DNA of 60,824 nt, the filler included, from Hausera hauseri (taxonomy: Eukaryota), in the NCBI GenBank assembly GCA_046269625.1. It is 10 parts of 10 records of this genome, joined end to end, with 100 filler letters (N's around TTAATTAATTAA, not from the genome) between each part and the next. Parts side by side here need not be neighbours in the genome. Positions count along the whole stretch, not along the records: positions 54,544 to 60,824 come from JBJURY010117765.1; 9 more parts are not named here. The stretch is one strand, 5' to 3'. Shown here piece by piece: positions 12,395 to 60,824 of the stretch. Numbering within the stretch: position 1 is the first letter of the stretch; the number at the start of each line of letters is the position of its first letter. Made by a program: the position numbers and the translations under genes. The notes under the pieces are model-generated. The model did not search any database. It was not told the origin of the DNA and was given only the letters and a program-made list of their open reading frames with translations.

Positions 12395-12660
12395 ATTGTA
12401 TCCGTACCATTTGTCAAGATATGGATTATAGTTACCTTTTCCTTTTTCTTGATTAATTGATTGCATTCAGGTTTTCCGGTAAGCTGTAATTCCTCTTCTT
12501 AAAACTTACCTCGAATGATCTGACTATCTTCGTCTTCTATCACATACATTACCTGCATTTATTGGGTGATTACATCACAAATTTAGAAGACTTCATCACG
12601 CCAGTTGTGATTCAAAGTTTTAATAAAAGTCTTAAAGTTCAATGAAGAAACTGTTCATGT
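12395..12660 (-). pseudogene. Maverick/Polinton-type integrase C-terminal fragment with chromodomain-like tail
   Basis: FKTFIKTLNHNWRDEVF*I...YVIEDEDSQIIRGKF*EEELQ...KWYGY. Confidence 0.65.
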
Positions 12661-12695
12661 CTATTGACAGGGATACTGCCATAGTATTTAACAAT
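12619..12695 (+). repeat. 77-nt exact terminal direct repeat of contig 2 (copy 2)
   Basis: Identical to 5616-5692. Confidence 0.95.
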
Positions 12696-23072: not shown

Positions 23073-23341
23073 GAAATTGGACTTTTACTCTCAGGACTCT
23101 GACATTTACTTGAACTAATTGTATGCTATACAGAACTAACGTTATGGGTACAAATTGGTATTTTATAATCACTCATCGAAGGACTTTGTTGAGTACGATC
23201 ATTTATTGTACATGTGTTTTTGTTGATAGTCGATTTAGATGCAAAAGATCGGGCCCGATTACGGGCCAGACGCGGAGGCAAGAGACGCCCGGCCGCGCCA
23301 GAACAAATATGTTAAACGGCACCGGCCGCCTTGGCACCACA
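23073..23341 (-). repeat. 3' LTR (partial) of the contig 5 gypsy element; PPT at 23345-23356
   Basis: Minus strand GGGGGGAGGGGG-TGA-TGTGGTGCC downstream of integrase. Confidence 0.65.
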
Positions 23342-26300
23342 TCACCCCCTCCCCCCACTATGGCAAAGTGAAAACTATAAAGATCAAAATAAACGGAAAG
23401 AAAAAATCGCTAAACGAAAAAGTGTCTGATCATAGTAAGAACAAGACGTTGAGTGCCTTCTACTGATTTTTCCCTGTTATACTTGCTAAATGTGACTCTA
23501 CGTTTTTTGTCTTTATGCGGCGTGTTTTCTTGCAGAGATTGAAGTTGGGGAAAGAAATTGTCGGATTTTATTGTGAGTATTGTGTCGTGTGAAGATGAGT
23601 CAGAATAAGGAGAAAAAAAAGGTGAAGGAGGAAGAGAGGTTGTTCAAGACGTATGGTTAAAGGTATTCAAGAGAGTGTTAGAAGACGAAGGAATGATAAA
23701 AGGTGTAGTGCAGATGAAGGAAGATGACTGCTGGAGTAGAAGTTGGAATTGTATTAGGCAAAAGAGTGGAAGTGGAAAATGAAATAGATGTAATATTAGA
23801 GAAAGGAAAAAAGATAGGAATAGAAGTAGAGAGAGGAGGAAGTTGCGAAGCGTAAATGAAAGGAGTAAAAGACGATGTGTGCGGGAAAAGGGAGAAAGGA
23901 AGCGCCGAAGAGAGAGAGGACGAAGAGGGAGCAAGAAGATGGAGAGTTTGGTAAAGTAGAAGTGGTGTTTGACGGAGGAGGTCTTGTAGAAGGAGAAAGC
24001 AGGTTATCATCAGGGGATGAAGGAGGTGTTAAAATTCTTGAGGGTGCAAAATCGGATGGGGAAAAGGGGATAAACTGTCAGAAAAAATTGAAGTGGAAGT
24101 CTTGTGAAAAAACCTAGGGGAAAGTGGATTAAGAAATTGAACAGAGATGGAAGGTGAATTTTTGGATTGCTGTGCGTCGTGTATAGATGTTGGGGAGAAA
24201 CGGTTTCGATGGAAAACGTATCGGCAATGAAGAAAGCCGGCTTAGCGTTGTTGATGTAGAATGTTACTTCCTTTTTGTCACTGAAAATGATGATGTTGTG
24301 AGAGTGTAAACGATTTACTTTGTAAGGGGCAACATAATGAGGTTGAAAACCACACGGCGTCTGATTCTTTAGCCATATGAACTTGGCAGTGTATAAATCG
24401 TTGGGTATGTAAGGTTTATTTCCGTGTAATAGTCTACAAAATGAGTCTTTGCTGATCTCAGTGAAGTGTCTCTGTGCTGCTTGTATGGTTTCATCTGTAG
24501 GAATATTGTCAAGCTCAGCCAGCTCGAATAATGGTTTGATAGAAGTACCAAATAATGATTCTGCAGGAGAGCAGCCTATAAAAGTAGATGGTGTGTTCCG
24601 CCAGCCAAGCAGAACGTACGGAAGGAGTGTAGTCCAACTGCGATTGGACTCAGCAAGGATTTTGAGAGAGGTTTTCATTGTTCGGTAAAAGCGTTTGAGA
24701 AGGCCATTCGATTGAGAATGATATGGTGACGTGTGAATGTGGTTAATTTCCAATCGACTGACAAGAGATTTAAACAGGTTGGATTCAAACTGTGGACCTT
24801 GGTCCGAAATGATGTAGCGAGGTGATCCAAACCTGCTAATCTAAGTGCGGATGAAACATCTGCGATTGTTTCTCTGTTGATGCTCTGAAGCGGGACAGCC
24901 TTTGGCCATTGCGAGGAACGGTCCATCATTGTGAGGATGAACTGATGGCCGTTGTCTAAGGGTAATGGGCCAACAAGGTCAATGTAAACAGATTCAAAAC
25001 GAAACGTGCAAGGAAAATGATATAGTGGTGGCTTTAAGTGCTTAGTAACTTTGTATTTTTGGCATGCAACAAACTACCTAACCCATGCCTGCACGTCAGA
25101 GCGCATCGACGGCCATCCTACTTGGAGTTGTAAGAGTCGAAAAGTGGCCTTGGCACCAGGATAGTGCAGCGAACGGATGTTGTTGAATGCTCCTTTTTGA
25201 AGCGATTCAGAAAAATGACTTTAGGATTATAAGGTTTGGAGGTGTCAAAGGTTACACAGTCGATGGTTTTGCAGGATTTCAAAGATTTAAGGATGTCAGG
25301 AGGTAGCTTGTTTTGTTCAAGTTTGGGTTGAGAAAAAATTGGTGTGAAATCAATCGAGCTAGCGATCGGGACAAAAAGTCAGCTACTAAATTGTCGACGC
25401 CGTTTAGGTGCTTAATTACAAAATTAAATGTGGACAAGTACGATATTTGCCTCTCCCAACATGCAGAAGGCGATTTTATGATGAGAATTTGAAGCAAGGG
25501 CTTGTGGTCCGTTTGTATTGTAAATGTTCGTGCAGTTAGCAGATGTTTAAAGTGTTTTAAGCCAAGGACCATTGCAAGCAACTCTCTGTCAAAGTTGGAA
25601 TATCTTTGCTCTTGTGTCGTAAATTTTCGAGAAAAGATTTCTAGTGGCTCATGGGATCCATTTTTGACTTGATGGAGGACAGCACCTGCAGCTGTTGTAA
25701 ATGCATCCGTGGTTACGAAGAGTTCTGCATGGGAGTCGGGATAGGCCAGAATTTCTACGGTTTTTAGATTATCTTTGAGGTGATTGAAAACGTTGACTAA
25801 TTTGGCGGTCCATTGAATAGGCTGCTTTTTCTTGCCAGAGGTTAATAATGCAAATGGAGCGGCTAGAGTGGAACAGCGTGAAACATACTCATGATTAAAA
25901 TGCAAGGTTCCGAGAAAAGAACACATCTATGTAGATGTACGTGGTAGTTGCATGTTTTTGAGCTGTGTGATGCGCTCTGGCTGAGGTGAATGTCCGGAGG
26001 AGCTAATAACATGTCCTAGGAAGTTCACATTATGTTGAGAAAAGATCATTTGGTAAAATTAATTTGCAAATTGTTTTGGTGCAAGTGTCCGGAGTGTTGT
26101 TTCGTAGAAGATGATGCAATTAGAATATCATCAATATAGGGATAAGCGATTTATAAACCTGAGAGGACTGAATCTATATGCTTTTGGAAGGTCAGAGAAG
26201 CGCTACGGAGTCCAAAAGGCATGAAAAGGTATTCGATAAAGCCGAAAGGTGTAATGACAGCCGTTTTCGGAATGTCTGCCGGGGCCACAAGAATTTGGTG

Positions 26301-27480
26301 GTATGCTTTGTGTAAATCAATGCAGAAAAAGATAGTCGAACCATGGAGCCTGTGAAGGATATCATTAATTAATGGTAGAAGGTAGGCATCCATTGTTGTT
26401 ATGATGTTGAGTTGGCGGTAATCACCGCATGGGCGAAAGGTGCAATCTTTTTTTGGAACCACATGTAGGGATGAAGACCACGGGCATTTGGATCTTCTGT
26501 TTATTACTGATTTTTCCATTTCGAGAAACTCAGCCTCCACTGCCTGTCTGCGGCGAAGCAATGGCGAGTAGACCTTTTGACGTATTGGTCTTTGATGTGC
26601 TGTTACTATGTGATGGAAGGTGGATTGAGGAAGTTCGAATGATTTGTCTTTTTGAAACAGACGAGTGCAGGAAGACGAGATATATTTCTGTAAGTCAGAG
26701 GGCAACGATGAAAAGTTATCAGGCGGTGTCGATGCATCGTGACTGGATGCAGTTGAGGTAGGACTTGTAGATAAGGTGTTGTGACAAGGTGTTATTTGGT
26801 GCGGGATGTTCGTGTTGAAGATGGTGTTGGCAGCTGTAGTATCAGCAATAGGTGCCACGCAGTTGGCAATATCGTATTTGTTGTCGTAATAAAAATTTTT
26901 GTATAATGAATGATTATAAAAATAATTTAAATCGGGAGTTGTTTTCTTCAGTATTGACTTGTTGGAAGCAATCGCCTGGGTGGTCACGGAAATGCTGCTA
27001 ATTTGATTAAAATTATGTCCGCTCTTTAAGGAACATCGTTTGCAGTCTATAAGTAAATTATAGTGGGACAGAAAGTCTAAACCCAATATAGGTGTGCGTA
27101 CATTGACTACTGTAAATTTCCAAGTGAATGTATTTGGGAAATTTGAAAGAGTGAAAATTAATCTGGTAACACCAAAGGTTTGTAAAGGTTCACCGCACTC
27201 AGTGAACACTTGCTTTTTTGAAGTGAAATTGTTTTGCATATGCTGCGTTGGTGGTAGTAAAGAAATTGCTGTGCCAGGGACAGGGTGTTGTGTGTGAGTG
27301 CAACATTTCATAGGCTATGTCCGCCAGTTCGGCTAGCTTTTCCAGCGCCGTGGAGTTCTCCACAATAATTAGCAAAGACATTATTAGAAGGGGCAATACA
27401 TTTTAAAAATAACAACGAAGAAGTTCTGGACTATGCTCAGATGTTACGCCAAGGGTATTGAAGTGGGACAAAGACGTGCG
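23073..27480 (-). mobile_element. Degraded Ty3/gypsy LTR retrotransposon (Gag end, partial protease, RT, RNase H, integrase, PPT, LTR)
   Basis: LEKLAELAD (Gag end), PILGLDFL (protease), PWSSSLHVVPKK..FRPCGDYRQLN, YIDD, TDAF..ERQISYL..DFLSR (RNase H), TSPYHSQSNG (integrase); order PR-RT-RH-IN; protease DTG region appears deleted. Confidence 0.92.
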
Positions 27481-32278: not shown

Positions 32279-32643
32279 TTTATGAGCTTTCTATCATCTT
32301 GTTATTTGATACATTATATTTATTTTTCCTTATTTTTCGTATTCTATTCTAAGTAACTAAGTAATTAAGTAAGTCTAAGTAATGTTGGAAGTTATAGCCG
32401 TCTAGGTCCAACCTACTTGACGGCAGCCCGTCTAATTCTAACTAATGAAGAGCTAATTATAACTGTAGTGAGTAAATAATACCTAAAGGCTCACAGCCTA
32501 CTAGACCCCTACATACAGACATGGGATAATGTTAGGTAAGGTCTGGTTATCTGACACCCTCATTACAAATCTTATTCACCCATTAATTCATATTAAGTAA
32601 GTTCTCGAAGCCTCTCCCAGGTGAAATTAATGGGAATTAAACA
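32279..32643 (+). repeat. 5' LTR (3' part), ending ACA; degenerate PBS at 32646-32663
   Basis: Colinear similarity to 44350-44636; followed by AC-TGGTACTTTGACCCGGGA. Confidence 0.75.
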
Positions 32644-32696
32644 ACTGGTACTTTGACCCGGGAAAGCTTAGTAACCTAGAAGCATTTAGATAGTAG

Positions 32697-33800
32697 ACGA
32701 ATAAAACCTCTAAAATTACGACCAGAACAGGGACACCGTATAAAGTAGATTCGGATGATAATTTGCCATTTGGGTTAGAGTTCATAACTAATTTAAGTGA
32801 AGAAGATGAAAACGGAATGGCCCGAAATGAACATAACATAGAACTGGTGATGCAGTCAAAAGCCGACTTCACCTTGCCCATGAAGAAGTTTTCAGGAAAG
32901 GAAGACGTACAAGATTTCCTCATGGAATATGATGTATATTCTAAGAGCTTCGGATGGAATGATTAACAACGAATGAATAGGTTACCTCTCCACCTAAAAG
33001 GAACTGCATTAACAATATACTTCCAGATGTCAGAAGAGGATAAAAAGGATTGGAAGGCTCTCAAAGATAAGTTACCTCAAAAGTTTCTAGTTGATCCTTC
33101 TGGAAAAAGAAGAATAGAGGAATTTATACAAAGGAGGCAACGAAAAGACGAGACAGTTCGGGATTTCGTCTGCACACTGGAAAAGTTAGCTGCAAAGGCT
33201 TATCCTGATGCAGTAATAAGAAATAACGCGTTGTTGGCTCAATTTCAATATGGATTAGAAGGGAAGTTAAGAAGTATTATATTGCAAGCCGATCCCTCCA
33301 CATTTTAAGAGACAATTAGGAAGGCCCGAAAAGCCAAACGGGATGCCAAATTATATAAATGGACAAAGTCAAAAGATAATACAAACAACAACAAACGAAG
33401 AAGAAATAGTACAAAAAGATACCAGAGATACGACAGAAATCGAAGCCCATCGCAAACGTCAGCTACAGAGGTTGAATCCAATGTAGAAAGATGGTAAGAT
33501 TCAAGTTAAAGAACGATGGGGAAAAGTCAAAAAGTATTCCACCAAAGGCGGCCGTTCGTTGCCAAGTATAGATTCAGAGAGTAGTTTAAAATGTTTTAAT
33601 TGCAACAAATATTGTCACATAGCAAAAACTAGTAGATCACGCAGAAGAGAATCTACAAGGACGAAAGATAAAAAGGAAGAAAAAAAAAACAAGATTATAC
33701 GTCAGCCACGTCAGAGGAGTCTTCCGATAAAGATGAGTCAGAGGAAAGCGAACATGAGGATAGTAAGAAAGATAAAAAGAGAGAAAAGGTAAATTACGTT
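32697..33800 (+). pseudogene. gag: Gag (capsid domain plus CCHC zinc knuckle)
   Basis: KFSGKEDVQDFL..Y......GWND, LHLKGTAL, RRQRKDETVRDF...L..LA..AYP, QFQYGL, CFNCNKYCHIAKTS. Confidence 0.88.
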
Positions 33801-34191: not shown

Positions 34192-35034
34192 GTGAACCAA
34201 GCAACAACCGCAATATTAAAAATAATAGACAATAAAGTAACAATAGTTAAGATAAATGAGATTCTATTTCAGTTATTACTACTAGCTTACGACAGTAGCC
34301 CAGTACGAGAAATAGCAAGAACAATACTAGCTAAGACAGCCGAAGGTAAGAAGAAGCGGAATGAGGCAGTAAGAATAACATTAAAGGAAGGAAACCAGGA
34401 TATAAGGGTCATTAAAATGAATGAGATGGATGATGTATTAACATTACGAGAAAATATTAAGGAATTGGAGCCATTTTATAAAGAAAATGTCTATGGATTA
34501 AGTTTCTTTGGCCGAACATTATATGGCTATGATCAATTGTTAAGAATTGGGTGCCGGAGTGAAAATTACAATCCCATCACTATAATCGAAATACGCGCCG
34601 ATGCAAGAGCGGAAGAAACAATAGCTGACATAATAAGAGAAGTGGGACCCCAGGAACTCCAAGGAAGGGAAGAACAGTTGTTAGCTGATACTCAAGATGT
34701 TACGGTACAAACAGAATCACAAAGAAAAGGAAAGCCAAAAGGAACAAGGATAAATGACATACGAAACAGAAGGGATAGGAATGAGGAAATTGTACGACGA
34801 TTATTACTAGCAGAAACAGATACGACACCGGAATCTGTAGACATAGATCCGTTATTAAGAACGTTATTATTAGCAAAACTCCACATGTCATTTGCGTCGT
34901 TCGAAATGCAGGTGACTATTACATATGAATTGTTTCAGATGTTACGGAATAATATGTTAAGAAATATCAGACAATTTTACGAAAATATTAACGAGGAACG
35001 AATTAACAAACTCCACGAAAAGGATATATTATAA
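34192..35034 (+). CDS. ORF X, unknown protein between gag and the glycoprotein
   Basis: 280-codon open frame on the element strand; no recognised motif. Confidence 0.5.
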   Translation: MNQATTAILKIIDNKVTIVKINEILFQLLLLAYDSSPVREIARTILAKTAEGKKKRNEAVRITLKEGNQDIRVIKMNEMDDVLTLRENIKELEPFYKENVYGLSFFGRTLYGYDQLLRIGCRSENYNPITIIEIRADARAEETIADIIREVGPQELQGREEQLLADTQDVTVQTESQRKGKPKGTRINDIRNRRDRNEEIVRRLLLAETDTTPESVDIDPLLRTLLLAKLHMSFASFEMQVTITYELFQMLRNNMLRNIRQFYENINEERINKLHEKDIL

Positions 35035-35326
35035 AAGATGTTTGCCACAGGGATTACTTGGGAAAAGGGAGTTACGGCGGTGGCCTATTTAAATATATAA
35101 AGTGATAGTAGTTAATTATCAAACACAGAATTTGGAGGAAATAGTACGAAGTATAAAAGTAACCGTTAAAATCCTACGTGATACTTTAGAAATTTGGATA
35201 CAATGTAAAGGCGGGTGGATATCTAGTCTGATGAATGGTAGGTTAAATGTACAAAGAGAAGTACCAGAAAGACCAACCACAACCCAACCAAGTATTAACA
35301 AACACGGCCTCGGTGGCACGTCAATT

Positions 35327-37160
35327 ATGGAAGTACTACAAATATTACTAATAGCATCATTATACTTGCCTAAAGCCATGGGAATGGTGGCTTATGATTG
35401 TGCGAAAATAAAAGATGGACAAAAGTATTCTCTAATAGATTTAAAAAAATGTCCCGAAGCAGACCCAGAGCAATTGACAACAACTAGTGGTCATCGATAT
35501 TGGGTGTATCAAGAGTCAGAATTTTAAATGTGAAGATAAGGGAGTACTATGTGAAGAAGTCGTTCCTTTTATTCAATTGTGCATATTATTCAGGAAATTC
35601 GACCATTATTGAACCAAAGACCCCTTTTGAGCCAATAATAATATCTCGGGCGTAATGTCAAGATGTTTTTAAAATCGGGGTCATAACAATACAGAATGCT
35701 CAAATTCCAGCCATACGAGGAAAGATAAAGTATACTCGAATTTTTCGAGCGGAAAGAATAGATAAAACAATGGAAAGCACCTGTATGGGAGTAGATTACG
35801 ATGTTGGAGGAACAATTGCTCCAAGAACGGTGGCAATTAAAGACTATCAAGTTCAGTTAAAAGAATACGAAGTATTATTCGATTTACAAACAAGATTTAT
35901 GACAATAGTGAGTGAATGCGAATATGAAAGCGGTAAATGTAATATAGAATAATCTAAAATTACATGGGAAACATCTTTAAATCGATGTCATTTGACACTA
36001 TTAAAGGAAGGGAAATTGAATAAAACAGTTGGAAAAACGGCTGAAAAGAAAACATCAACCTACAGAGAAGGGGTCAAAGAAGTAAAAATGACGGAAGTAG
36101 CAACAGTAGTATACTAACAGAACCCTGAATAGAAGATGCGCTTTAATATTATGGGAGCAATCAATAAATGTAATGAAAAAATGTTTAAGACCAACTATAA
36201 AGGCTTATATCTCTCATCAAGGGAAGTGGCAAAAGCAAAAACAAAAATTAATAAGATAGGTATTAAAGTAACGCAATATTTCGATAACAAAATAGGCTAC
36301 TTGATTAATTATGTTCTAGAGGAAATAACAAACTTTTATAGAGAAATGATATTAAATGAATGTAAATTAAATTACGAAATAATACGTAACAAGATGGCGT
36401 TGGTAGTAACAAACCCGCATATGGTGGCCGCAGTTATGTCGTTCGGAGGTGAAGTAATCCGGCGAGTAATGGGTGAGGTACTAATAACGATCGAATGTAA
36501 AAAGTAGAGGTAGCCATCAGAGAAACGAAGATATGCACCTCGGAGTTGCCGGTGTTGTATAATATGGAACCCAGATATGTAATACCGGTAATTCGGATAT
36601 TATTAGATGCTAGGGCGAAACCCACGCTACTGGATAATTGTACTTTTAACATGTCACCGATGTTCAAGCTAAATGATAAGTGGTTCAGAATGCCAAAGCG
36701 AGAAGAAGTAGGAAAACCGGAAACTTTAATTTCGATTAATTTACAAAGAAACCAAAAATTTGAACCACTAACTGGCATTTATACGCAGCAGAATTTAGAA
36801 AATTATCGAAGGATGTTCTTATTCCCTCAACAGAGACAACAGATAATAACGGAATTAACAAGAAAAGTAATGTGGAATGGAAAAGGTTCCCCACATTGGA
36901 AAAATTTAAGGGGAATGGATTATGTGAAGAAAGTTACAAGGAATGTAATGAAAAAGATGTGAGGGAAGTTTTTGTACTTTTGCCAGGCAACATCAGGATT
37001 CTTGGCTATATATTTTATTATTAGCGCCTTACGGACGATATTCACTGGCTGGGTAAAGCGTATGGCATACACGCAGCAGTGGGTTGTTCTTGGAATATTC
37101 TTATAGCGCTGGTACTAGCCGTAGCTAGTTGCTTCCTAGGAAATCATGATGCAAAATAGC
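35327..37160 (+). pseudogene. env: Chuvirus-like (gB-type, class III) fusion glycoprotein
   Basis: Signal MEVLQILLIASLYLPKAMG, then AYDC...YSLIDLKKC; YFDNKIGY...FYREMILNECKL...GEVLITIECKKVEV...CTSELPVLY...PVIRIL; TM region GKFLYFCQATSGFLAIYFII; the cysteine and motif pattern of chuviral G proteins. Confidence 0.8.
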
Positions 37161-41069: not shown

Positions 41070-42431
41070 GCTCCCAGCCTAAGTAAGTACGTGGTATTGC
41101 TAATTGCCTTCTACTGTCCGGTGAAATAGCACAATTGACCGAAAAGGACAAAAATACGTCATTCGATTGCAATATTTGAGGATTTGTTATTGAAGAGTAT
41201 TCAGTATCAAGTACAATATGACAAAACAGGTAATAAATGTGTGAAATTCCATACTATAATGCCTATATCCGCCCAATACATGATAGGAATCCAAATTATA
41301 TCTTCGCGGTCTAATCAAAACCCCCTGGAACGTAAATATGGTTGCATACTAAGCCATTGGAAATTGGAGACAGAATGTATCATTGAAGAATCAGGTATGC
41401 ATGAAGTATATTATACACTAATTAAAAACCAAGATGATTATTATCGAAGTCTATATACAAGAAGGATGAGATCTATATTAATCCCTAATCGTCGCCACAT
41501 GAATGAAACCCAATTGGATGCAATAATAATCGGTCAAATCATAGCTAGATCCATAGGATTTAAAAGTGGTAGAAGTTGTATCGAAGTAACAAGTAAAATA
41601 TAATTAGAATATATAAGATGGATAACAGTATATATAAAAGAGGAGTGAAGTCAAAACCGGGTACCTATGAAATGCTACATAACGCACGAACAAAGACAGA
41701 CTTGTTGTAACGTAACCCGAAGGAAAATCTATAGTGTGAAATACGCATTAATCCGAAAAGAGAATGGGTGGCTTAAAAACAAATTGAAAGTAACTGATCC
41801 AACTATGTATATACGATATAAGAACCTTATAGAACGAGATGAAAAGAAAGTAAACGACACGGTACCGGTGGTGCAATCCCCGCTGATACATGGAAGCAAA
41901 GATAATGAAAAGGAGATAACCATATTAGTTAAACCTTACACCTCCTACATAAGTCAGAAACGTTCCATTTTGGAAAATGTCACAATTATCACGGCCCCGA
42001 CTTCTCTAATAATTTCTGTAAGGCCGGACCTTGATTTTTCAATAATAAGATTCACGTGCAAAATGCGAAATAACATAGTAGCCAAAGGTATAATAACTCC
42101 AGACGATTTGATAGCACCCTGCGCGACCCTTATTCCAAACATGACATATGCAGTTATTCTGCAGTTAATCGGCAGTAATAACAAAATCATATCCACCAAA
42201 ATCTTAACAGCACAAACCAAAAGTAATGTGATAATAAAACCATTGCACAAAGAGACAAAATATTCATACAAAACCACCGTGAAACTGATGCGCGCCACTT
42301 ATACTCATTCACGAATAGAGTTAATAATTATCAGTGTAACAGTTCCCCTTGCAGTAGTCATCATAGTGGAAATATCAATGAGTAATTCAATATATACGAA
42401 ACCGCCGCAGACACCAATGGATAAGGATTGA
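41070..42431 (+). pseudogene. Post-integrase putative type I membrane protein with an FN3-like domain
   Basis: Hydrophobic YVVLLIAFYCPV at the end of the integrase frame; Cys-containing ectodomain ORFs 41184-41603 and 41667-42431; LIPNMTYAVIL (FN3 L.P.T.Y.V motif); TM-like LIIISVTVPLAVVIIV. Confidence 0.5.
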
Positions 42432-42663
42432 CTTGCGACGGATGCAAAATAACTTTGAGGTATCAACTTCAACCTGACGATGGTGTAACCGGATTACGAT
42501 ACAAGTAATCCAGAAATTAAGGATAATTAAATATGTGATAGTTACCCTACAATTTTGGCTAAATATAAACAAAAGCATACCGGTTACCGCAGTTGGGTTG
42601 ATAACTGTTATGATATGGTTAAGTGATATACATATTCTATTGATTTTCTTTTTTATAGACATC

Positions 42664-43883
42664 ATGTCAATTCAAACCCTCCAAAGAAGCAAGAACTGGT
42701 TTGAAAATGCAAAAAATCATCTAATGAATGCAAATGCCAACAATCCGTGTTATGTGATATTAAACGAGAATACATATAGCCTTAACTATGCATTTGTCCA
42801 ACAAATTCCGAACAACCTCAAAGGCTACTCTCAAAGCCACCGATCTCTCGCATTGATACAGATGACCAAGGCCACTTCGTTCTTGATATCGGATATAATT
42901 ACCTTACCAGATAAATATCACAGTTTAAATGCCTACGATATAATTGGAAAGTTTCAACTCAAAGCGAAAGAAAGGAAAACACAGCAACAAGGTGACTTCA
43001 TCAGTTTGGACCCAAATAATGCAATATCACTAGAATTTAAGTTTATAAAAAATAACGTCACTAAAATCAGATCATTAACTTACCAAATTATGCTGGCGTT
43101 AGAAGTCATTAAAGCAGAATCTTTTTGGACCACACCGATCCATGGAAAAGCGTTTAATCTGGTTGAACCAGACTATCTCAAATATGCCACTATTCCGTAT
43201 CGTCGAATACCATCTATAACTACCGATGAAATTGTAATTGTTGCAGTCAATCTAGTCTATGATCAATTTAATCAGTTTACACGTATTGAGTGTTCAGTCA
43301 TCAATCTCTGAGGCGATTCTTTATTTTATGCTATCATTATTCCGAGACAGCGAATCAACAATTACGATTCACATATAACGGGTCTATTCGAAATCAACAC
43401 ATCGGTCAGATGGATGAGAATACATTTTATCAAAGAATAGCCGAAATACTAAATGACAAATTGATAGTGGGAGCTGCAGTTTATGAGATGCTAACTAAGC
43501 ATCTCAAAGTCCCACTCAGACGGATCCTAGGAATTCGTGATATCCTCTATCACGAAGATGTGATCCAAAAATATGAACTAACTTCTTCTATCTATAAAGA
43601 GCTTGCAAAACGCATCTACGAAATGCGTGCCATGCTGTTACGCAGCGCAACATTAGTACAATGTTATCAAGTAATTTATAACAGTTTAACATGGAAGGAT
43701 GAAGAAATAAACGATAATACACCTGCCGATAAACTTCTCAAAAGGGCATCTCTAACATCGTTAAGGAAAAGAAAGATTGAAATCGACGAAGCAATTACGC
43801 TGGATGGCGAAACCTACATGCATGATGGGATACGATGCAAAACCTCTACAGGCAAGACATTCTTTCAACCTCTTCCTCAGTAA
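42664..43883 (+). pseudogene. ORF with C-terminal ISG20/REX4-like DEDDh exonuclease fold (catalytic acidic residues not evident)
   Basis: Reading through the TGA at 43309 and one frameshift gives CSVINL*GDSLFYAIIIPRQRINNYDSHITG..RNQHIGQMDENTFYQRIAEILNDKLIVG, which aligns with ISG20-type CSLVN..G.VLYDKFIRP...ITDYRT.VSG....HM..A..F.....EIL.LL.GKLVVG. Confidence 0.6.
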
Positions 43884-44349
43884 ATTTGGGACAATTTACT
43901 CTAACCCCCCATCGAAATTGACGAATAATCTGAACATTGATAGAATGAAATCATTTTCTTGCTAAACTTATTTCATCAGCTCATTAGCTAAATATTAATT
44001 ATTGTGTCATGATATCCGTTTTATTGTGTCATGATTTCCGTTAACGATTATCATATGTTTTATAACTTTTTAGTAGATGTTTTTGGTGAGCACTGAATTA
44101 ATGATATTGATATCGCTTTTAATATTAGTTTTTTGTATAATATTTCATTTATCTGGAACAAAACTTTGTATAGAAACATATGACCAATCAAGTATAAATA
44201 TTTGATAATTTTTAGCGAAAATTAGAATAAAGTCTTGCTTATCATCTATCCGTTTTTTTGTATACCTCCGTAAGAGTTTATGCAATTGTTAACTTATCAT
44301 TTTTCTTTTGTTGAAATATTATATTTGGTATACTATTATTGTTCATTGT

Positions 44350-44636
44350 TGATCTTAAGTAACTGAGTAACTTACTAAGTCAAAATAATCTTTTGGAACA
44401 TCGCCGTCCAGGTCTACCCTACCTGACGGCAACCCGTCTAAATACCTAAGTAATCAGAGCCTATTAAAACCGTAGTAAGTAATTTAATTTGTACAGGCCC
44501 ACAGCCTACTTGACCCCTACACACAGAAATAGGATAGGGTTAGGTAAGAGTACGACAGCTGAAACGAACCTTGTTCACCCATTAATTCACAAATTCTCGG
44601 AAGCCTCTCCCTGGTGAGATTAGTGGGGATTGAACA
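44350..44636 (+). repeat. Second LTR (5' boundary not determined), ending ACA
   Basis: Diverged but colinear with 32345-32643. Confidence 0.75.
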
Positions 44637-44638
44637 AC

Positions 44639-44657
44639 TGGTTCCGTGACCCGGGAT
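44639..44657 (+). promoter_or_regulatory. Primer-binding site, probably tRNA-His
   Basis: TGGTTCCGTGACCCGGGAT compared with TGGTGCCGTGACC/T..GAT expected for tRNA-His; 2 nt after the LTR-terminal CA. Confidence 0.6.
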
Positions 44658-44684
44658 CTAGAATCAAGAAACCTTTAGATAGCA

Positions 44685-45641
44685 GACGAATAAACCGTTA
44701 AGATTACGACTAGGAAAGGGATACCGTATAAAGTAGACTCAGACGATAACTTACCATTTGGGTTATAGTTTATAGCCAATTTAAGTGAAGAAGAGGAAAA
44801 CGGAATGGCCCGAAATGAACATAATGTAGAACAGGTAATACAGTCGAAAGCGGACGTCACCCTTCTAATGATAAAGTTTTCAGGGAAAGAAGATATACAA
44901 GATTTCCTCATGGAATATGAGGTATATTCCAAGAGTTTTGGATGGAATGACCAACAACGAATGGAGAGGTTACCTCTCCACCTGAAAGGAACTGCATTAA
45001 CGATTTACTTCCAAATGCCAGAGGAGGATAAGAAGGATTAGAAGACTGTCAAAGATAAGTTACCCCAAAAGTTCCTAGTTGATCCTTCAGGAAAAGGAAG
45101 GATAGAGGAGTTTATACGAAGGAGGCAAAGAAAAGACGAGACAGTCCAGGATTTCGTCTGTGCACTGGAAAAGTTAGCCGCAAGGGCTTATCCCGATGCA
45201 GTAATACGAAATAACGCTTTGTTGGCTCAATTTCAATATGGATTAGAAGGAAAGTTAAGAAGCATTATATTACAAGCCGACCCCTCCACTTTTCAAGAGG
45301 TAATTAGGAAGGCTCGAAAGGCCGAACGGGACGCTGAATTGTATAAATGGACGAAGTCAAAAGATAGTGCAAATAATTACAAAAGAAGAAATAACAGTAC
45401 ACAAAGGTACCAGAGATACGATAAAAATCAAAGCTCCTGACAAACATCAGCCACAGAGGCTGAGTCTGATGTAGAAAAGAAGGTAAGATTCAAGTTAAAG
45501 AACGATGGGGAAAAGTCAAAGAAGTATTCCATTAAAGATGGCCGTTCGCTGCCAAGCATAGATTCAGAGGGTAGGTTAAAATGTTTTAACTGTAACAAAT
45601 ATGGCCATATAGCAAAGACGTGTAGATCACGCAGGCGAGAA
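44685..45641 (+). pseudogene. gag: Second, diverged gag copy (truncated by contig end)
   Basis: Colinear with 32697-33650; intact CFNCNKYGHIAKTC zinc knuckle. Confidence 0.9.
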
Positions 45642-53051: not shown

Positions 53052-54443
53052 ATGACTCAAGCAAAGAAAAAGTGTCGGCAATATAATATGGATTATTTGA
53101 AATACGGATTTATCGAATCACCTGGAAATAATACATTACCAATGTGCCTTATTTGTCAAAAGGTTCTATCAAACGAAGCGATGAAGCCTTCGAGATTACA
53201 AGAACATTTGAATAAAATTCATGGCGATAAAAAGAATAAAGATTTATCTTTTTTTCAAACATTGAAAGATAAATTTATTAAACAACCGACATTGGCAAAA
53301 CTCTTTTCAAATTTTAGCAATTGAGATGACGATGGCTTGTTTGCTAGTTACAACATTTCATTAATGATAGCGAAATCGGGAAAACCACATACCATTGGCG
53401 AAGAACTAATAATACCAGCCATTAGTGAAGTAATACGTACCGTTCTGCATAAGCCAGTAAATGATATTATCAAGAAGATTTCTTTGAGTAATAACACAGT
53501 GCAAAGAAGAATTGATGAAATGGCGGAAAATGTTGAAAACTCATTGTGCGAATATTTAAAAACATCTAGGTTTTCTATTCAACTAGATGAGTCAACTTTG
53601 CCAGGTAATGAAGCTTTGCTTTTGACATACGTGCGATTCATAAAGGAAGAACAAATTTGTCAAGAGTTCTTATTTGCAAAATATTTGCAAACCGATACCA
53701 AAGGAACTTCAATAATCCATATAATGGACGAATTTTTTAAAGCAAAAGAAATACCTCTTAGTAATATTTTATCAGTGGCCACGGATGGTGCTCCAGCGAT
53801 GATTGGATGCTACAAAGGCTTTCTTGCATGTTTGAAAAAGGAGGTACCGAATGTATTCACAGTCCACTGTGTCATCCATCGTCAGCACCTAGTTGCCAAA
53901 AATTTAAGTGCTCGCCTACATAATTCATTACAATATGTAATTAAAGCTGTTAACACAATTCGGAGTAAATCATTGAATGACAGATTATTTAAACAGCTTT
54001 GTATTGAAAATGATGAAGAATTTAATCGTTTGCTGTTTCATACAGAAGTTCGATGGTTGTCAAAGGGAGTTTTTTTAGATAGGTTTTACAAATTATTTAA
54101 CTCGGTGCTGCAGTTCTTGGAAGATAAAGATGATGTATTGCGATCCAATTTAATTCAATCCAAAAGTGACATTGCTTACTTAACAGACTTATTCCAAAAA
54201 TTTAATGAAACCAATCTTCAACTTCAAGGTGATGAGGTGAATTTAATAAAAACAAAATCGGTTATATCTGCATTTGTTGCAAAACTACTTTTGTACAGGC
54301 AAAATCTTGGACGAGGAGATATCAGACAGTTTCCAAATTTAGCAAGAGCAGAAAGTAAAATTGAAGACATTCTATCCTATTGTGAGCACTTGGATGCTCT
54401 GCATTTAGATTTTAGTCAACGATTTGATGATATTTTGAAAATG
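53052..54443 (+). pseudogene. Buster-type hAT transposase (ZBED5/ZBED8/SCAND3-like) with one in-frame TGA at 53322
   Basis: BED finger CLIC..MKPSRL..HL...H, QLDES, ATDGAPAM, HCVIHRQHL, TEVRWLS. Confidence 0.93.
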
Positions 54444-54588
54444 NNNNNNNNNNNNNNNNNNNNNNNNNNNNNNNNNNNNNNNNNNNNTTAATTAATTAAN
54501 NNNNNNNNNNNNNNNNNNNNNNNNNNNNNNNNNNNNNNNNNNNGATTTTCCTGATTCCATATATATTGCTCAACAAAGTTTAATCGAC

Positions 54589-57500
54589 TCACCATTGGGC
54601 GTTAGACTTAGGCGTTAGGACAGCGATCAACGATAAGGCTACTATTATTTGTGCGTAAGACACCGGCCTGGTGACAATCGACGAGGTCTTGGCTTCTCGT
54701 TGTCTTAAATTGTAGCGTTTAGCTAGTCTTATATCTGTTTTAACCACTCTTTGAATTGATATGACTTCCTCCTTACCGTTTTTATTAACATAGACCGTGG
54801 TTGGCGTTGTACGGATGATTTCATATGGTCCTCTTCCGGTACGGGTTAGTTTTAAAGATGTACCTTTCTTCGCGACCGGGTAATGTATATAAACCCAGTT
54901 TCCGTTTTCAAGATCATTGGACTTAGTCTTTTTATCATGTTGTTTTTTAAATTGTTCCTGGCATTCGAACGATAATGTTTTCGCAACTTCCCAACATTTT
55001 TGCAATCTTGTCTGTAATACTTCGGCAAAGTTTTGCTCGAGATCCTCGAAGTTCTTTTCGTACGGTGTCATACCTAGATCTGTAGATACGATTGCTTCTC
55101 GTCCATATATCATAAAGAACGGTGTAAATCCCGCTGCTGGATGTGGTGTCGTATTGATTGCGAACTGTGTCCCTTCTAAAAATTCGTCCCAATTCTTTTG
55201 GTCTTTGGCCATTACTGTTGATAGTATACGAATGACTGTTGCGTTCATTCGTTCCACCATTTCATTACATTGGGGTGGTACGCGGTAGTGGTTAGTCGTT
55301 CGATTTCGAATATCTTAATAATTTTTTTAAATAATTCACTTGTGAAGTTCCTTCCTCTATCCGTTAAGATTTGTTCTGGTGGTCCGTATCTGCAGATAAT
55401 TTTCCTTACCACTGCGTCGGCTAAAGTTTCTGCCTTTTGATCTAATAATGCCACTAGCTCGACAAAATGCGTTAACCGATCCACGCATGTTAGAATATAT
55501 CTGTTATTTTTGTGAGTTTTCGGCAGGGGTCCCACTATATCCATAGACATAGCTTGCATGGGTCTATCTGGTACGTTTATGGGTTTAATTCTGCTACGTA
55601 GCCTTTCGTTTTCTTTTGCTTTGTCGCACAAACTTCGCAAGCACTTACCCAATTCTTTACATCGATATAAATGCTTGGCCAATAGTATTCATTTAATATC
55701 CTTTCCAATGTCTTCTTCCAAGGCATCTGTCCGGCTAAATATGAATCATGTTCGGCCATGAGTACTTTGATGCGTAATCCTTTCGGGACAACTATTAATC
55801 TTCTCCCTTTTTGTTCGTAATATATGGTATTATCTTGATTCGATGCACGATAGTTTTGTCCGTGTTTCCGTAGATGTTTCTTCAGCTGTCGTCCTTTGGG
55901 CATTTTTCCGTTTTGTGCGAACTTAACAATTTGCTAAATAACCTTATCTTTAGCTTGCTCTGCGGTGATCCTGATCGTTTTATCCAAGATTACAGTTCTT
56001 TAACGTTCAATTATCTGTTCAAGCTGCGTTTTGTTCCCTGTGGTAATCCCACTTGTTTTTGTCTTTAACCTTGATAGTGCGTCGGCGTCGACGTGTTTAG
56101 TACCTGGTTTGCATTGGAATTCAATGTTATATAGTGAGATTTCCTCGATCCAATGGTTTAATCTACATGTTGGGTTATTGGCTCCTCCTTTCAATGTCGT
56201 AACGGCTTTGTGGTCGGTCACTATTACAATTTTTTGTCCATAGACATAGACATTAAAATGTCGTAGTGCTTCATTTACGGCTAACGTCTCTAATTTGGTA
56301 ACCGAATAATTCTTTTCTGCTTTCTTTAACGAACGTCCTCCATAGGCTATTGGGTGTTCTAGTTCTTCACCTTCTCGTTTCTGAGCTAGTTCATGTCCTA
56401 TACGTTCTTTAATTGCATCTGTTTTAATGATGAATGGTAGGTTAAAATCAGGGTATCTTAAAACTTGTTCGCTTGTCAAAATTTTCTTCCTTTCGTCAAA
56501 TGCTTTTTGTTCCACTTCCGTCCATCTCCTCTTGGTTCCCTTTTTGAGTAGGCGATATAGTGGTGCGTTAATTTTCGAATTGTCTGGTACATAAGTGTCG
56601 TAATATTCACATAGTCTTAACCAATGTCTCAACTCTTTTTGATTCTGTGGTTGCATACAATCGGATATTTTATTTAGCAAGGATTTATCCGGTTTTGATC
56701 CTCCTTCGCCAACTATATGTCCGAGGCATGATACTGCGTTCTGTGCCCATTTATATTTCTGCGGATTTAGTTTCAACCCTGCTTGTTCCATTCGCATGAG
56801 TGTATCTTCAATGTTCTTTAAGTGTTCTTCCTCTGTTTTTGATGCTACCATTACGTCGTCTAAATATGCGAAAGCATGATCAAGTCCCATGAGAATCTTA
56901 TTCATCATTCTAGTAAAAATAGCTGTTCCTGTAGTTATGCCGAAAGGCATAACATTAAATTCGTATACGCCATCGTGTGTTTTAAACGCTCTCTTATATC
57001 GATCTTCTTCTTCGATTACCACTTGCCAGTATGACGATTGTAAGTCGAGAGTTGTAAACAATTTCGTTCCTGATAGTCTGTCTAAAGCTTCCTTTGCCGA
57101 TGGTATGGGAAACGAGTCTTTCATCATAAGCGTGTTTAATGCCCAATAGTCTATAGAACATCGATGTTTCGTGGTTCCTTTCTTTTTAACCATAAGTATA
57201 GGCGAATACCATGATAAGTAGCTTGGTCGAATTATATCGGCCTTTAACATTCGCTCTACCTCCTTAGTTATTTCTGGTCTCAATGAATGGGGAGGTGGGT
57301 ACCATTTCGGCATTTTCTGTTCTTCTAGATCGATTTCGTCATTCGAGCCGGGTTTTTTCCTTAATGGGATTGCTAGTCTCAGGGCTTTTGCTCTACCTAT
57401 GTCTACCTCATTTTGTACGATTATTGAACGGTATTTACATAGTAATTCGTAGAACTTGCAATGCGCCTAACGAGAAAATTTGGTTTTGACGTGAGGTGGA

Positions 57501-58200
57501 AATTCAGCGCATTTGTATGGTTTTTCCTCTATTCTTACTGCCGATACTCTGCAAGTGTGCCCTAATGTAGTGTTAGCGTGCAATCTTGCGGGGGTTGGTG
57601 CATTGTTCATTAATCTGATAGGTATGAGTCCTGTCGCTACTCTACATAGGATATTGCTAAACATAAGGTTTGGATCGATATTCTCTTGAGGTTCATAATA
57701 TACTGGATGATCTTCGTCTTGACGAATCTGTACGAAAATTATCATTTCGGTTCTGGCGGAATGTCTTTGTTTACTTGAATATATACTTCGCCGGGTTTTC
57801 TCTCCTTTATTATTTTTGTTCCCTTAGTTGGTCCAAGCTCAAGTAACTTCCCATTATGCACATCGATTGCAAAGTTTGGTATCTGTTTCAGTATATCTCA
57901 ACCCAATACTACATCGTCTGTTAACTGGTCCATTATCGCAAATTCATGTTGACGTGCTTGGCCCATAATATAAACGGTAGGAGTCCATTTAAATTTTGGT
58001 TTCGATATTTTCCCAAATGCTCCTATACTGCCAGGGTCTGATGATGACGCAGTGTGGTTGGTATGGATTCGTATTTTATAAACGACTTTTCTGATCCTAT
58101 GTCGACTAAGGCATATACTTCCCAGTCTTCAATGTGTAATTTAGCGAAAGGTCTTCCTTTTACTACTGTTCCAAAGCAATTCGACGCTATCTTTGACTGT
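54589..58200 (-). pseudogene. pol: pol: protease, RT, RNase H, integrase
   Basis: ALVDIGS, WYSPILMVKKK, YLDD, KTDA, TDHKA, ADALSR, AEHDS...CEVC, MDIVGPLP, LTDRGRNF, MVERMN, GPY. Confidence 0.95.
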
Positions 58201-58799
58201 TTTATAGTAGAGACTCGGTGTCCATTTATCGTTATTTCGGGTGATGAAACGATATTTTCCCCTAATTGTCTTAATTCTCCGATCGGGTATAAATTATTAT
58301 TCGCCATCTTATTGACACGACTGTCGATGTGCGGTTTTTGAGGCTGCGGACCTGGGATCGAACACAATTTTGGGTTCTTCCAGATGGTTGATTTTAATTC
58401 TATATGATGAAGTATTCTTTTTGAGTATAATATTCCGTGGTCGTTTGTTAGTCCTTGGTCAATAACGTTCATTTTCTGTAGTACTCCATATTGTTTCGTT
58501 CTTTCATAAGGGTCTTAATAATCAGTGGGCTTGCGGTAGATGTCGGACTTATATGACATGACTGATTTCCGGTCGCAGTCTTCGTATACTGGTGCAGTTG
58601 GTGGCATGATGGGCAATGGCGCGTTAATCACTGAGTACATCTTGTGCATCTTTAATTTGGAACTCGCTTCTCATCTTCTATGCTCGTCATTATCTGAATC
58701 ATCCTTTTGTGTTATTGTCTTCTTGTTTTTACGTCTGTACAGAATCGAGGGCCTCCCTCGTAGTTTGCGACTATAGTACCCGAAGTGGCGTTCTACGTC

Positions 58800-60595
58800 A
58801 TTTTTCCACCGATTTTCTTCGTAGGCCTTCCAAAGGGTGTGATAATTGCAGTCAAAATTTTGCAGGAAAATCTTGTTAATGTGAATATTTCATATCCGTT
58901 TATGACGGCTTGGATTACTGCTTTAATTAACTGGACCAAAACATAAATGGCTAGGAATCCAGATGTGGCTTGTCCGAAAATCAAAAATCTTCCCCAAATC
59001 TTATACAATATTTCTGAAGTTACTCTTTGATAGTGATTAGTGCTGAGTAACGATTCTCATTTTGCTTGAAAGCGGGTGTCGTTCATTACCATTAACATTG
59101 CCTAAAGGCTTCTATGTATTTTGGTCTATAAATTCCCTTGTTGGCCATGTCTTTGAACTTATCTTCTGATAATCCTTTGATCAAATTTGTTCCGGTTAGC
59201 TTACTAGGGGCTGCCGCAGCGCATCCATTCGGTAAACTTATACAGTTGGTTCCGCTACGTCGAAACATGGGTTCACCTAGGCTCGTTTTGCATTCCTTCA
59301 GTATCGTTGGTTGGGTTGAGATTGCCAGTAATACCCTGGTGAGTGGCATCGCTAATCTCGGCATATTCTCGTAGATGACCGCTAATTCTTGCATGCACCT
59401 TTTTTCTTCTACGTTGATCGGCACGTCTCTTTTTTTGCATTCATAAGTTAACAGGACTTCTCCGGTAACTCGTCCAAAGACACCCTGTTTCATTGGTATA
59501 ATGGGTGATGCCAGTTCTGGATTGGCATAAATTAAGGCCAGTTTGGTTGTCATGACTTCAGTATCTAATCTTCAGCCATTTGTTATCATTTTGTGGTATA
59601 GCTCTGCTATTCCGATCTGTCCTTTATAATGGAAATAGTCGTCTCGATTTTTGAGGTAATTTTCGATCCGCACATCTTGTGTTCTCAAATGATACGTTTT
59701 CATGTCAATTTCTGTTTCTGCTGCGAAAAATGCTTCGTAGTTGGTGGTATAGATCACTGGATCGCATCGTGTTAACATATCCTTTTTAATAAACTTTAAT
59801 CCATGTATGTCCCATATCAATATCGTTAGTGTGGGATGTTCTATTAAGTCTTCCGTTTTCTGGTATTAGTGTGTATTTTATTTGTATAACCTTTTCCGGT
59901 TTTCTCACTAAATTTTAACTCTTTGATTTTAATGAAATTGAAATCTCTTTTGGAGGGTGGACTCCATACAACAACTGAGTTTCGGAACATGCAAGCACCA
60001 TATTGAATGTGACATTTTTGGTTTTCTGTGAATAGTTTAGTAACACTATGAATCATCGCTTTTAGGTATCTTAACTCGGTTTCGTAAAAATTTACGACTA
60101 CTATTTCTCCTTCTTTTCCTTTTCCGGTATCATATTCTGCACCGACGCAGTAATCGGTGTGCATGTTTAGTTTTCCGACTGCCACTCTGTATGCTCTAAT
60201 TATCTTTCCCTTTTGGGCCTCTAATTCCATGCCATCCAAGATCATTTTACCGGTTAGTCGGGCTCCCAAACAATGTTGTCTATCCACGTTCATTGGTATT
60301 AATGGTGTAGTTGGTTTGATTATCGAGGAATACCCATGCATATTACCACAATAAAACAAGCTTTGAGATCTTTGTATTATGCATTTCGTCGCATCCATTG
60401 CCATTAATTCTCGTTGTTGATATAATATATTTTTTCTTTCTACTGTCTCGAGCTTGTGAGGCCTCGCATCTTAACATGTTTCTAAGTCCATCAAAGAATA
60501 TTTCTGACTCACCTTGAATTTGTCACAATCATATATAGTGATGGCTCCTATCTGCTTTACTAGCATCATTATTGTCAGCAAGTTAATTAACCACT
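58800..60595 (-). pseudogene. env: Chuvirus-like (gB-type, class III) fusion glycoprotein
   Basis: WLINLLTIMMLVKQIGA-ITIYDCDK...YSLMDLETC, LFYCG, GEVLLTYECKK...CMQELAVIY...PLTRVL, TM region WGRFLIFGQATSGFLAIYVLVQLIKAVIQAVINGY. Confidence 0.82.
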
Positions 60596-60824
60596 TAGAT
60601 TCGATTCCTTTGTTTGGAGTGATATTTCGTATTATGTCTTCTAACTTATTAGCCCCTTTTGTATTAGTCCATTTTATTTTTTTAGATACCCTTCTAGCAG
60701 CTTTTCTAGCTAACCCAATTTTCTTGTCGAATTCGCTCCCCCGAAGTGGTTAGTTCTTACTGCTAAATATATCAAGACTTTCCTTAATTCCTCCATCGTA
60801 TTGTCTACCATAATTCTATCGATC

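What the first reader, a model, noticed from the sequence alone, without database searches (positions are those of the whole stretch)
54544..60824. Independent, divergent second element with the same glycoprotein-then-pol layout
This glycoprotein aligns with the contig 7 protein at the amino-acid level (YDC...QKYSL.DL..C, GEVL.T.ECKK, QATSGFLAIY), but the nucleotide sequence and pol have clearly diverged. Its hydrophobic signal (WLINLLTIMMLVKQIGA) is again internal, preceded by in-frame basic sequence. Conserved placement across divergent families implies an old, selected genome organisation.
Basis: partly seen in the sequence, partly recalled or inferred. Interest (0 to 1): 0.8.

Follow-up and report, generated by a model that had tools for sequence, protein, structure and literature searches.

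The report
Decayed Burro-like enveloped gypsy retroelement
This is a broken copy of a highly repeated retrovirus-like jumping gene, likely from a flatworm, with a viral fusion-protein gene in front of its replication enzymes; the layout is real and likely inherited from an old common ancestor, but it was already published for the planarian Burro elements.

Summary
Contig 10 (minus strand) reads internal signal, class III (chuvirus-like, PF24664) glycoprotein, transmembrane anchor, protease, RT, RNase H, integrase. It is cut at both ends (no gag, no LTR) and is dead (about 7 frame changes, about 15 stops). It has no blastn match to contig 7; protein identity is 25-41% (glycoprotein) and 36.5% (RT/RNase H). 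Twelve of 12 long relatives from one search carry glycoprotein then protease in one chain, so the join is not an assembly artefact. RT trees put both window elements on one side of a branch with these relatives (97/97; 93/90 under a mixture model), which favours shared ancestry over independent capture. The layout is published: planarian Burro/GYPSM1 (PMC6431247) and GAG-ENV-POL errantiviruses of flatworms, nematodes and bryozoans (PMC13524379). One addition was not found in print. Contig 10 ends in a second signal-like stretch after integrase, 10 of 11 clade relatives have two or more hydrophobic segments there, and contig 7's version is predicted to fold as fibronectin type III (Z 11). This scan noted both the layout and the second protein before, on other DNA. 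Verdict: new, divergent member of a known kind.

The parts
60594..60824 (-). Basic stretch in frame with the signal; cut by the contig end; two stops, no Met; no Bcl-2-like BH2 motif, unlike contig 7
60543..60593 (-). Internal hydrophobic signal sequence, followed by the conserved YDC start of the ectodomain
   Evidence: same position in relatives
59865..60542 (-). Class III fusion glycoprotein, N-terminal part (PF24664 profile positions 58-221); one stop; frame change near 59860
   Evidence: (41.1 bits)
59092..59850 (-). Glycoprotein, middle part (PF24664 positions 268-489); one internal stop; frame change near 59080
   Evidence: (60.8 bits)
58800..59075 (-). Glycoprotein C-terminal part with membrane-proximal region and transmembrane anchor (QATSGFLAIY at 58972)
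   Evidence: (57.3 bits, positions 502-593)
58160..58799 (-). Linker between the anchor and the protease, predicted to be cytoplasmic; broken
   Evidence: no family hit
57770..58160 (-). Retropepsin-type aspartic protease, in two frames; active-site motif degenerate in this copy
   Evidence: (RVP, E 0.032, weak), by eye
57470..57760 (-). Stretch between protease and RT, alignable to relatives; lies where Burro has a dUTPase-like domain (name inferred from position only)
   Evidence: tblastn from 57751; no Pfam hit
56000..57466 (-). Reverse transcriptase (about 56711-57190, YLDD at 56866) and RNase H (about 56129-56524), open for 488 codons
   Evidence: (RVT_1 E 1e-29; RT_RNaseH_2 E 4e-30)
55613..55789 (-). 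Integrase H2C2 zinc-binding domain
   Evidence: E 1.8e-16
54760..55568 (-). Integrase core and C-terminal part; frame changes near 55630 and 55290
   Evidence: (rve E 1.4e-15)
54592..54663 (-). Second hydrophobic, signal-like stretch in frame after integrase; the contig ends about 15 codons later; likely the start of a second membrane protein
   Evidence: hydropathy 2.18; same place in 10 of 11 clade relatives
35330..37130 (+). Comparison element on contig 7: glycoprotein of the same family, after gag and a Bcl-2-like remnant, before protease-RT-RNase H-integrase
   Evidence: Retrotrans_gag E 1e-8; Bcl-2 E 0.028, weak
41649..42431 (+). Comparison element on contig 7: post-integrase membrane protein with a predicted fibronectin type III domain (about 41960-42225) and a transmembrane segment

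Best explanation
Contig 10 is an internal, decayed fragment of a high-copy Ty3/gypsy retroelement, likely of the planarian Burro-type (GAG-ENV-POL) group, whose intact relatives encode a class III fusion glycoprotein and protease-RT-RNase H-integrase in one reading frame. How the working family likely operated (inferred from topology, not tested): one polyprotein is translated with Gag first, in the cytosol. The internal signal threads the glycoprotein into the ER lumen and is likely cut by signal peptidase. The anchor stops transfer and returns the chain to the cytosol, where the enzymes are made and likely released by the element's own protease. A second internal signal after integrase would start a second membrane protein. 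Particles would bud with the glycoprotein, fuse with neighbouring cells and integrate a new copy. The contig 7 and contig 10 elements likely inherited this layout from a common ancestor. This copy cannot make the polyprotein.
For: Domain order on contig 10. All 33 of 33 hits to the glycoprotein piece carry PF24664. Of the 13 hits longer than 740 aa, 10 have a protease or full pol after the glycoprotein in the same chain at E <= 0.001, and none has pol before it. Twelve of 12 long relatives of P0123 have glycoprotein then protease, some with gag or a zinc knuckle upstream in the same chain (P0134, P0156, P0158, P0162). RT/RNase H trees: contig 10, contig 7 and 10 such polyproteins form one side of a branch, 97/97 (28 rows, LG+G4); the same split is 93/90 under LG+C20 (22 rows). 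Burro hallmarks among relatives: Bcl-2 in P0130 (E 0.001) and weakly on contig 7 (E 0.028), ubiquitin weakly in P0158 (E 0.018), ankyrin in P0154. By eye, the cysteine and motif pattern of contig 10 follows the six Schmidtea errantivirus ectodomain rows in a supplement of PMC13524379. High copy number: 16,555 contigs of run X1 lie on the 6.3 kb at 85% identity or more, covering 30 of 30 bins.
Against: Contig 10 has a long branch (1.0-2.1 changes per column). Its place inside the group is unresolved, the split is not starred under the mixture model, and FastTree joined it to P0006/P0106 with negligible support (0.086). The outgroup rows are only the top hits to this RT, mostly unnamed, and no Burro or Smed RT sequence was in the trees. 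Gag and LTRs are missing from the contig. The Bcl-2-like motif that precedes the signal in contig 7, P0122 and P0152 is absent from contig 10's 78 upstream codons. No single piece of run X1 listed spans anchor to protease, and X1 may be the window's own source. The host is not identified: one TTAGGG-type joint and the kinship to Schmidtea elements are only hints. Particle formation and fusion have not been tested here, and PMC13524379 calls the role of such envelopes in infectivity unclear.
Confidence: 0.85

Rival explanations
1. Convergence: an unrelated gypsy lineage captured a related chuvirus-like glycoprotein separately, or took it by recombination from a Burro-type element, and placed it at the same spot.
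For: GAG-ENV-POL elements are not monophyletic in PMC13524379 (section 5). Here P0009 and P0006 have the same order with a very different glycoprotein and fall outside the group. Contig 10's RT is at most 44-45% identical to any row, about equally to env-bearing and env-less ones.
Against: RT and glycoprotein agree: both group contig 10 with the same relatives and apart from P0009/P0006 (glycoprotein split 100/100; RT 97/97 and 93/90). Contig 10 also shares the post-integrase hydrophobic stretch, found in 10 of 11 clade members and 0 of 2 outside env-bearing rows.
Confidence: 0.09
2. The layout is inherited, but the glycoprotein no longer served cell-to-cell spread in this family; the element multiplied inside cells and the glycoprotein only anchored the polyprotein to membranes or rode along.
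For: No fusion, particle or expression data were obtained here. An in-frame gene inside a polyprotein must stay open whether or not it works as a fusogen (inference).
Against: Cysteines, signal and anchor are kept across relatives at about 30% identity, and family copies in run X1 cover the glycoprotein as well as pol.
Confidence: 0.15
3. Artefact or coincidence: a chimeric contig, or a lone viral glycoprotein fossil that sits next to an unrelated pol.
For: The region between anchor and protease is broken and has the thinnest cover by family contigs (lowest bin depth 119), and no listed piece spans it. Chuvirus-like fossils flanked by gypsy fragments are common in arthropods (PMC10084718, passages).
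Against: Same strand, same order and expected spacing as natural single-chain polyproteins; 30 of 30 bins across the join are covered by family contigs; contig 7 repeats the layout.
Confidence: 0.03

Closest known systems
Burro / GYPSM1 giant gypsy-like elements of Schmidtea and Dugesia (Jurka 2007 and Grohme 2018, as described in PMC6431247; section 7 read in full)
   Same: Fusion glycoprotein with hits to mononegavirus proteins, in frame between gag and pol; order protease, an intervening domain, RT, RNase H, integrase; very high copy number; decayed copies with stops and frameshifts. Bcl-2-like, ubiquitin-like and ankyrin modules appear, mostly weakly, in contig 7 or the relatives.
   Different: Contig 10 shows no Bcl-2, MATH, BIR or ankyrin in the part held. 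The sister unit on contig 7 is about 12 kb, not 30 kb. The section does not mention a membrane protein after integrase. No Burro sequence was available for direct comparison.
GAG-ENV-POL, HSV/gB-type errantiviruses of Platyhelminthes, Nematoda and Bryozoa (Chary and Hayashi, eLife 2026, PMC13524379; abstract, section 5 part 1, sections 14 and 22, word-search passages, rows of supplementary files 1 and 2)
   Same: Ty3/gypsy pol with a class III glycoprotein before it; multi-copy. The Schmidtea C1a ectodomains show the same motif and cysteine pattern by eye, and the pairs shown are 32-64% identical to each other.
   Different: The paper lists intact elements only; this copy is broken and partial. 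'Fibronectin', 'polyprotein' and 'single ORF' do not occur in its main text. Its figures could not be read.
Non-canonical nematode endogenous retroviruses (Sacco et al. 2022; seen only as cited in PMC13524379, paper not held)
   Same: ENV before POL in a metavirus (gypsy) backbone.
   Different: Not compared directly. A second env-before-pol type found here (P0009, P0006; hosts unnamed) has a distinct glycoprotein and RT and no post-integrase hydrophobic segment.
Anakin BEL/Pao elements of mosquitoes with a chuvirus-derived glycoprotein (PMC7642597, search listing only; PMC10084718, passages)
   Same: Same glycoprotein family associated with an LTR retrotransposon.
   Different: BEL/Pao backbone. 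Contig 10's pol has gypsy-type domains and order, and its named best hits are 412/17.6-type pol proteins.

Membership tests
Ty3/gypsy LTR retrotransposons (Metaviridae) | pol order protease-RT-RNase H-integrase with a gypsy-type RT | tested here: met
   named best hits are gypsy 412/17.6 pol; the protease hit is weak
Ty3/gypsy LTR retrotransposons (Metaviridae) | gag upstream, flanking LTRs, primer-binding site | tested here: inconclusive
   contig 10 is cut inside the reading frame at both ends and has no repeats; gag is present on contig 7 and in single-chain relatives
HSV/gB-type GAG-ENV-POL errantiviruses | class III (chuvirus/Monjiviricetes-like) glycoprotein with signal and anchor upstream of pol | tested here: met
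   PF24664 above cut-off in four pieces; hydrophobic signal and anchor
HSV/gB-type GAG-ENV-POL errantiviruses | five-domain gB-like trimeric fold | not tested
   the glycoprotein was not folded; a profile of its middle part found no solved structure at E < 0.4
HSV/gB-type GAG-ENV-POL errantiviruses | Platyhelminthes C1a cysteine pattern in domains I-II | tested here: inconclusive
   by-eye comparison with six supplement rows: 7 of 8 conserved cysteines appear to be present in this decayed copy; not computed
Burro / GYPSM1 | env in frame between gag and pol in one polyprotein | tested here: inconclusive
   met in natural relatives of the same RT group (P0156, P0158, P0162); cannot be read in this broken, cut copy
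Burro / GYPSM1 | cargo modules before env (MATH, Ubl/SUMO, Bcl-2, BIR, ankyrin) | tested here: inconclusive
   only 78 codons upstream are held, with no Pfam hit; weak Bcl-2 on contig 7; a ubiquitin-like stretch on contig 7 seen by eye was not confirmed
Burro / GYPSM1 | dUTPase-like domain between protease and RT | tested here: inconclusive
   a stretch there aligns to relatives but has no Pfam hit at E 0.5
Burro / GYPSM1 | RT clade membership with named Burro elements; planarian host; size over 30 kb | not testable with these tools
   no named Burro protein was returned; no genome is held; organism names are coded
Anakin (BEL/Pao with chuvirus glycoprotein) | BEL/Pao-type pol | tested here: not met
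   Pfam hits are RVT_1, RT_RNaseH, Integrase_H2C2 and rve, with no Pao-specific family; best hits are gypsy

The most novel reading that the evidence does not exclude
This old clade of enveloped retroelements uses a two-protein entry kit cut from one polyprotein: a conserved class III fusogen before the protease, and a swappable cell-adhesion-like membrane protein after the integrase (fibronectin type III domains with a mucin-like stalk in most members, another ectodomain in some) that picks the target cell or cell junction. Contig 10 would be one of the deepest branches that still shows both slots, dating the arrangement to the root of the clade.
Probability: 0.35. Interest if true: 0.6.

Novelty: new member of a known kind. 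Interest (0 to 1): 0.22.

Why it matters
The finding as stated is confirmatory: one more deep-branching family with the Burro-type order, at most 44-45% identical in RT/RNase H to any sequence in the trees, showing that the order persisted while the proteins diverged to about 30%. What could matter is the second membrane protein after integrase. If it is a conserved attachment partner, these elements would have a fusogen-plus-adhesin kit like enveloped viruses, which offers a testable handle on how such elements move between cells. Contig 10 itself holds only the first few dozen codons of that protein.

Tried and rejected
No host genome is held. A search for longer homologues of the glycoprotein N-terminal piece found 0 of 513 candidates (weak, word-limited). 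The look-up of 10 relatives gave one name, a 'Flavobacteriaceae' MAG protein. No RNA holder was listed (not evidence on expression). Contigs of run X1 are too short to bridge anchor and protease. The ubiquitin-like reading of 34369-34635 on contig 7 got no Pfam or PDB support, so it stays a by-eye lead. A profile of the glycoprotein middle part found no solved structure. None of the 8 post-integrase stretches matched Pfam fn3 alone. In leave-one-out profiles the left-out relatives scored E 8e-6 to 0.013 among 10 sequences, but contig 7 was not recovered (E 5.6): the domains are not shown to be homologous by sequence. Foldseek against PDB stayed busy, and the second fold (alignment A2, P0158 first) had not finished. 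The Atlas search on 13930-15135 did not help name the host. The first trees included long or chimeric rows (P0068, P0085, P0003, P0105) and left contig 10 unresolved; these rows and most near-identical outgroups were dropped for (28 and 22 of 136 rows). dN/dS between the two elements was not computed: with no blastn match, synonymous sites are expected to be saturated. Literature searches that found nothing: retrotransposon + envelope + 'between gag and pol' + 'glycoprotein B' (0 papers); 'LTR retrotransposon' + 'fibronectin type III' + integrase + transmembrane + envelope (0 papers). Subscription papers (Grohme 2018, Sacco 2022), Repbase entries and figure images were not seen and may already describe the post-integrase protein.
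Full report
Setting. The window is ten contigs joined by N-flanked linkers. The finding is the whole of contig 10 (54544-60824); the comparison element is on contig 7 (32279-45641). No genome is held for the window.

Observation. On the minus strand contig 10 reads: a basic stretch cut by the contig end, a hydrophobic signal at 60593, a glycoprotein, an anchor near 58970, a linker, protease, an intervening stretch, RT, RNase H, integrase, and a second hydrophobic stretch at 54592-54663 just before the contig ends. Four single-frame glycoprotein pieces (two of them overlapping) pass the curated cut-off of PF24664 Monjiviricetes_fusion. Blastn finds no contig 10 / contig 7 match. Protein identity is 25-41% over five glycoprotein pieces, 36.5% over 504 aa of RT/RNase H and 28% over the integrase C-half. 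The copy is dead: eight frame segments (seven frame changes) and 15 stops in the matching frames, a few of them at segment borders that I set by hand. There is no gag and no LTR on the contig.

Is the join real? A search of 1.84 billion representatives with the middle glycoprotein piece gave 33 hits; 33 of 33 carry PF24664. Of the 13 hits over 740 aa, 10 continue into a protease or a whole pol in the same chain, and none has pol first. A second search, with the glycoprotein of P0123, gave 12 long proteins; 12 of 12 have glycoprotein then protease, and P0134, P0156, P0158 and P0162 also have gag or a zinc knuckle upstream in the same chain. The basic stretch before it is not conserved in character (9 relatives). 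In run X1, the only run listed and possibly the source, 16,555 contigs lie on the element at 85% identity or more and cover 30 of 30 bins. All 30 bins across the anchor-protease region are covered, but no listed piece spans it. A chimeric join is therefore unlikely, and the family is high-copy.

One origin or two? RT/RNase H trees used single-frame natural pieces. With 28 of 136 rows (LG+G4), contig 10, contig 7 and 10 glycoprotein-before-protease polyproteins form one side of a branch at 97/97. With 22 rows under LG+C20 the same split is 93/90, not starred, and contig 10 is flagged as a long branch. Earlier trees with long or chimeric rows left contig 10 unresolved. Two other env-before-pol polyproteins, P0009 and P0006, fall outside the group in the RT trees and in a glycoprotein tree (100/100). 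So the two window elements most likely share the layout by descent, while the layout as such occurs in more than one lineage. Contig 10 is a deep branch: its highest identity to any row is 44-45% in RT/RNase H and 31% in the glycoprotein. No named Burro sequence was in the trees.

What is known. PMC6431247 (section 7, read in full) describes the planarian Burro/GYPSM1 elements: gag, Ubl/SUMO-like and Bcl-2-like modules, an env with hits to mononegavirus fusion proteins, protease, a dUTPase-like domain, RT, RNase H and integrase in one frame. [quoted passage not shown] The six Schmidtea ectodomain rows in its supplement show, by eye, the motif and cysteine pattern of contig 10. Contig 7 has a weak Bcl-2 hit before its glycoprotein (E 0.028), and P0130 a better one (E 0.001). 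The host of the window is likely a flatworm, but this rests on kinship and one TTAGGG-type joint, not on a host gene.

How it likely works. Shown: domain order, two hydrophobic segments flanking the glycoprotein, single-chain relatives, high copy number. Inferred: Gag is made first in the cytosol; the internal signal moves the glycoprotein into the ER and is cleaved; the anchor returns the chain to the cytosol; the protease releases the enzymes; particles bud with the fusogen and enter neighbouring cells. Fusion activity follows only from family membership (class III fusogens) and was not tested.

The addition. After integrase, 10 of 11 clade polyproteins with a complete integrase have two or more hydrophobic segments, a signal-like one and an anchor-like one. 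This compares with 0 of 2 outside env-bearing rows and 1 of 86 env-less rows; only 16 of the 86 have tails of 150 aa or more, so the control is soft. Contig 10 has the first segment and then ends. On contig 7 the matching ORF (41649-42431) gave Atlas leads to fibronectin type III families (scores 0.75-0.77, below the level of trust). Its single-sequence model is poor overall (mean pLDDT 45) but has a seven-strand domain at residues 106-190 (block means 55-75). That domain matches fibronectin type III structures (best Z 11.0, rmsd 2.3, 88 residues). A profile of eight such stretches, which I chose by eye around a shared motif and which is therefore biased, hit 34 PDB sequences, best E 6e-4 (neogenin); 33 of the 34 are proteins that I recall as containing this domain. 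Against this: none of the 8 matched Pfam fn3 alone, contig 7 was not recovered in a leave-one-out test, and P0162, P0163 and P0145 have other ectodomains. The slot is conserved; its content varies. I did not find it in print, but key papers and figures were out of reach. I had these results before reading the scan's earlier notes, which report the same layout (e1-8072000, e1-8073080, e1-8074084) and the same second protein (e1-9163015, e1-7907855) on other DNA; they are not independent support. The PDZ-tail lead from e1-7907855 was checked only by printing C-termini: 6 of 11 end in valine.

Verdict. Observation confirmed; interpretation supported; a new, divergent, decayed member of a published kind. 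Interest 0.22. The boldest reading not excluded, a fusogen-plus-adhesin entry kit dating to the root of the clade, has probability about 0.35 and would deserve about 0.6.

Noticed in passing
window 32306-33651 and 44311-45641 (contig 7): The start of the contig 7 element (LTR-like region and gag) recurs about 12.0 kb downstream at 82% identity, so two related units stand head to tail, or the contig joins two diverged copies.
   Followed up: partly
window 34369-34635 and 35100-35240 (contig 7, +): Ubiquitin-like stretch by eye (not confirmed) and a weak Bcl-2 hit (E 0.028) before the glycoprotein, in the order described for Burro.
   Followed up: partly
window 42478-43883 (contig 7, +): Two further open stretches (277 and 197 codons) follow the second membrane protein and have no Pfam hit at E 0.01; likely cargo.
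   Followed up: no
P0122, P0128, P0134, P0154, P0156, P0157, P0159, P0160: Many relatives carry two to four or more retropepsin-like domains in one chain, some after the integrase. Contig 10 shows one, with a possible remnant just before it near 58250.
   Followed up: partly
P0162 and P0163 have a short cysteine-rich ectodomain in place of the fibronectin-like one.
   Followed up: partly
P0123 (HBK71150.1): A 2627-aa env-pol polyprotein of this clade is filed at NCBI as a hypothetical protein of a Flavobacteriaceae metagenome bin; most likely animal DNA in a bacterial bin.
   Followed up: no
window 5616-12695 (contig 2): The contig ends share an exact 77-nt repeat (likely an assembler's circular overlap); it holds an open 475-codon RING-finger stretch and a 157-nt inverted repeat at 75%.
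   Followed up: no
window 23073-27480 (contig 5, -): A separate, broken gypsy pol (RT, RNase H, integrase pieces); no glycoprotein hit among the ORFs scanned.
   Followed up: no
window 2655-4193, 13289-17521, 17878-22590, 53325-54443: An eIF2B-epsilon/gamma-like ORF, a long beta-rich ORF set of unknown family, and pieces that look by eye like a Polinton-type DNA polymerase and a hAT-type transposase (not tested).
   Followed up: no
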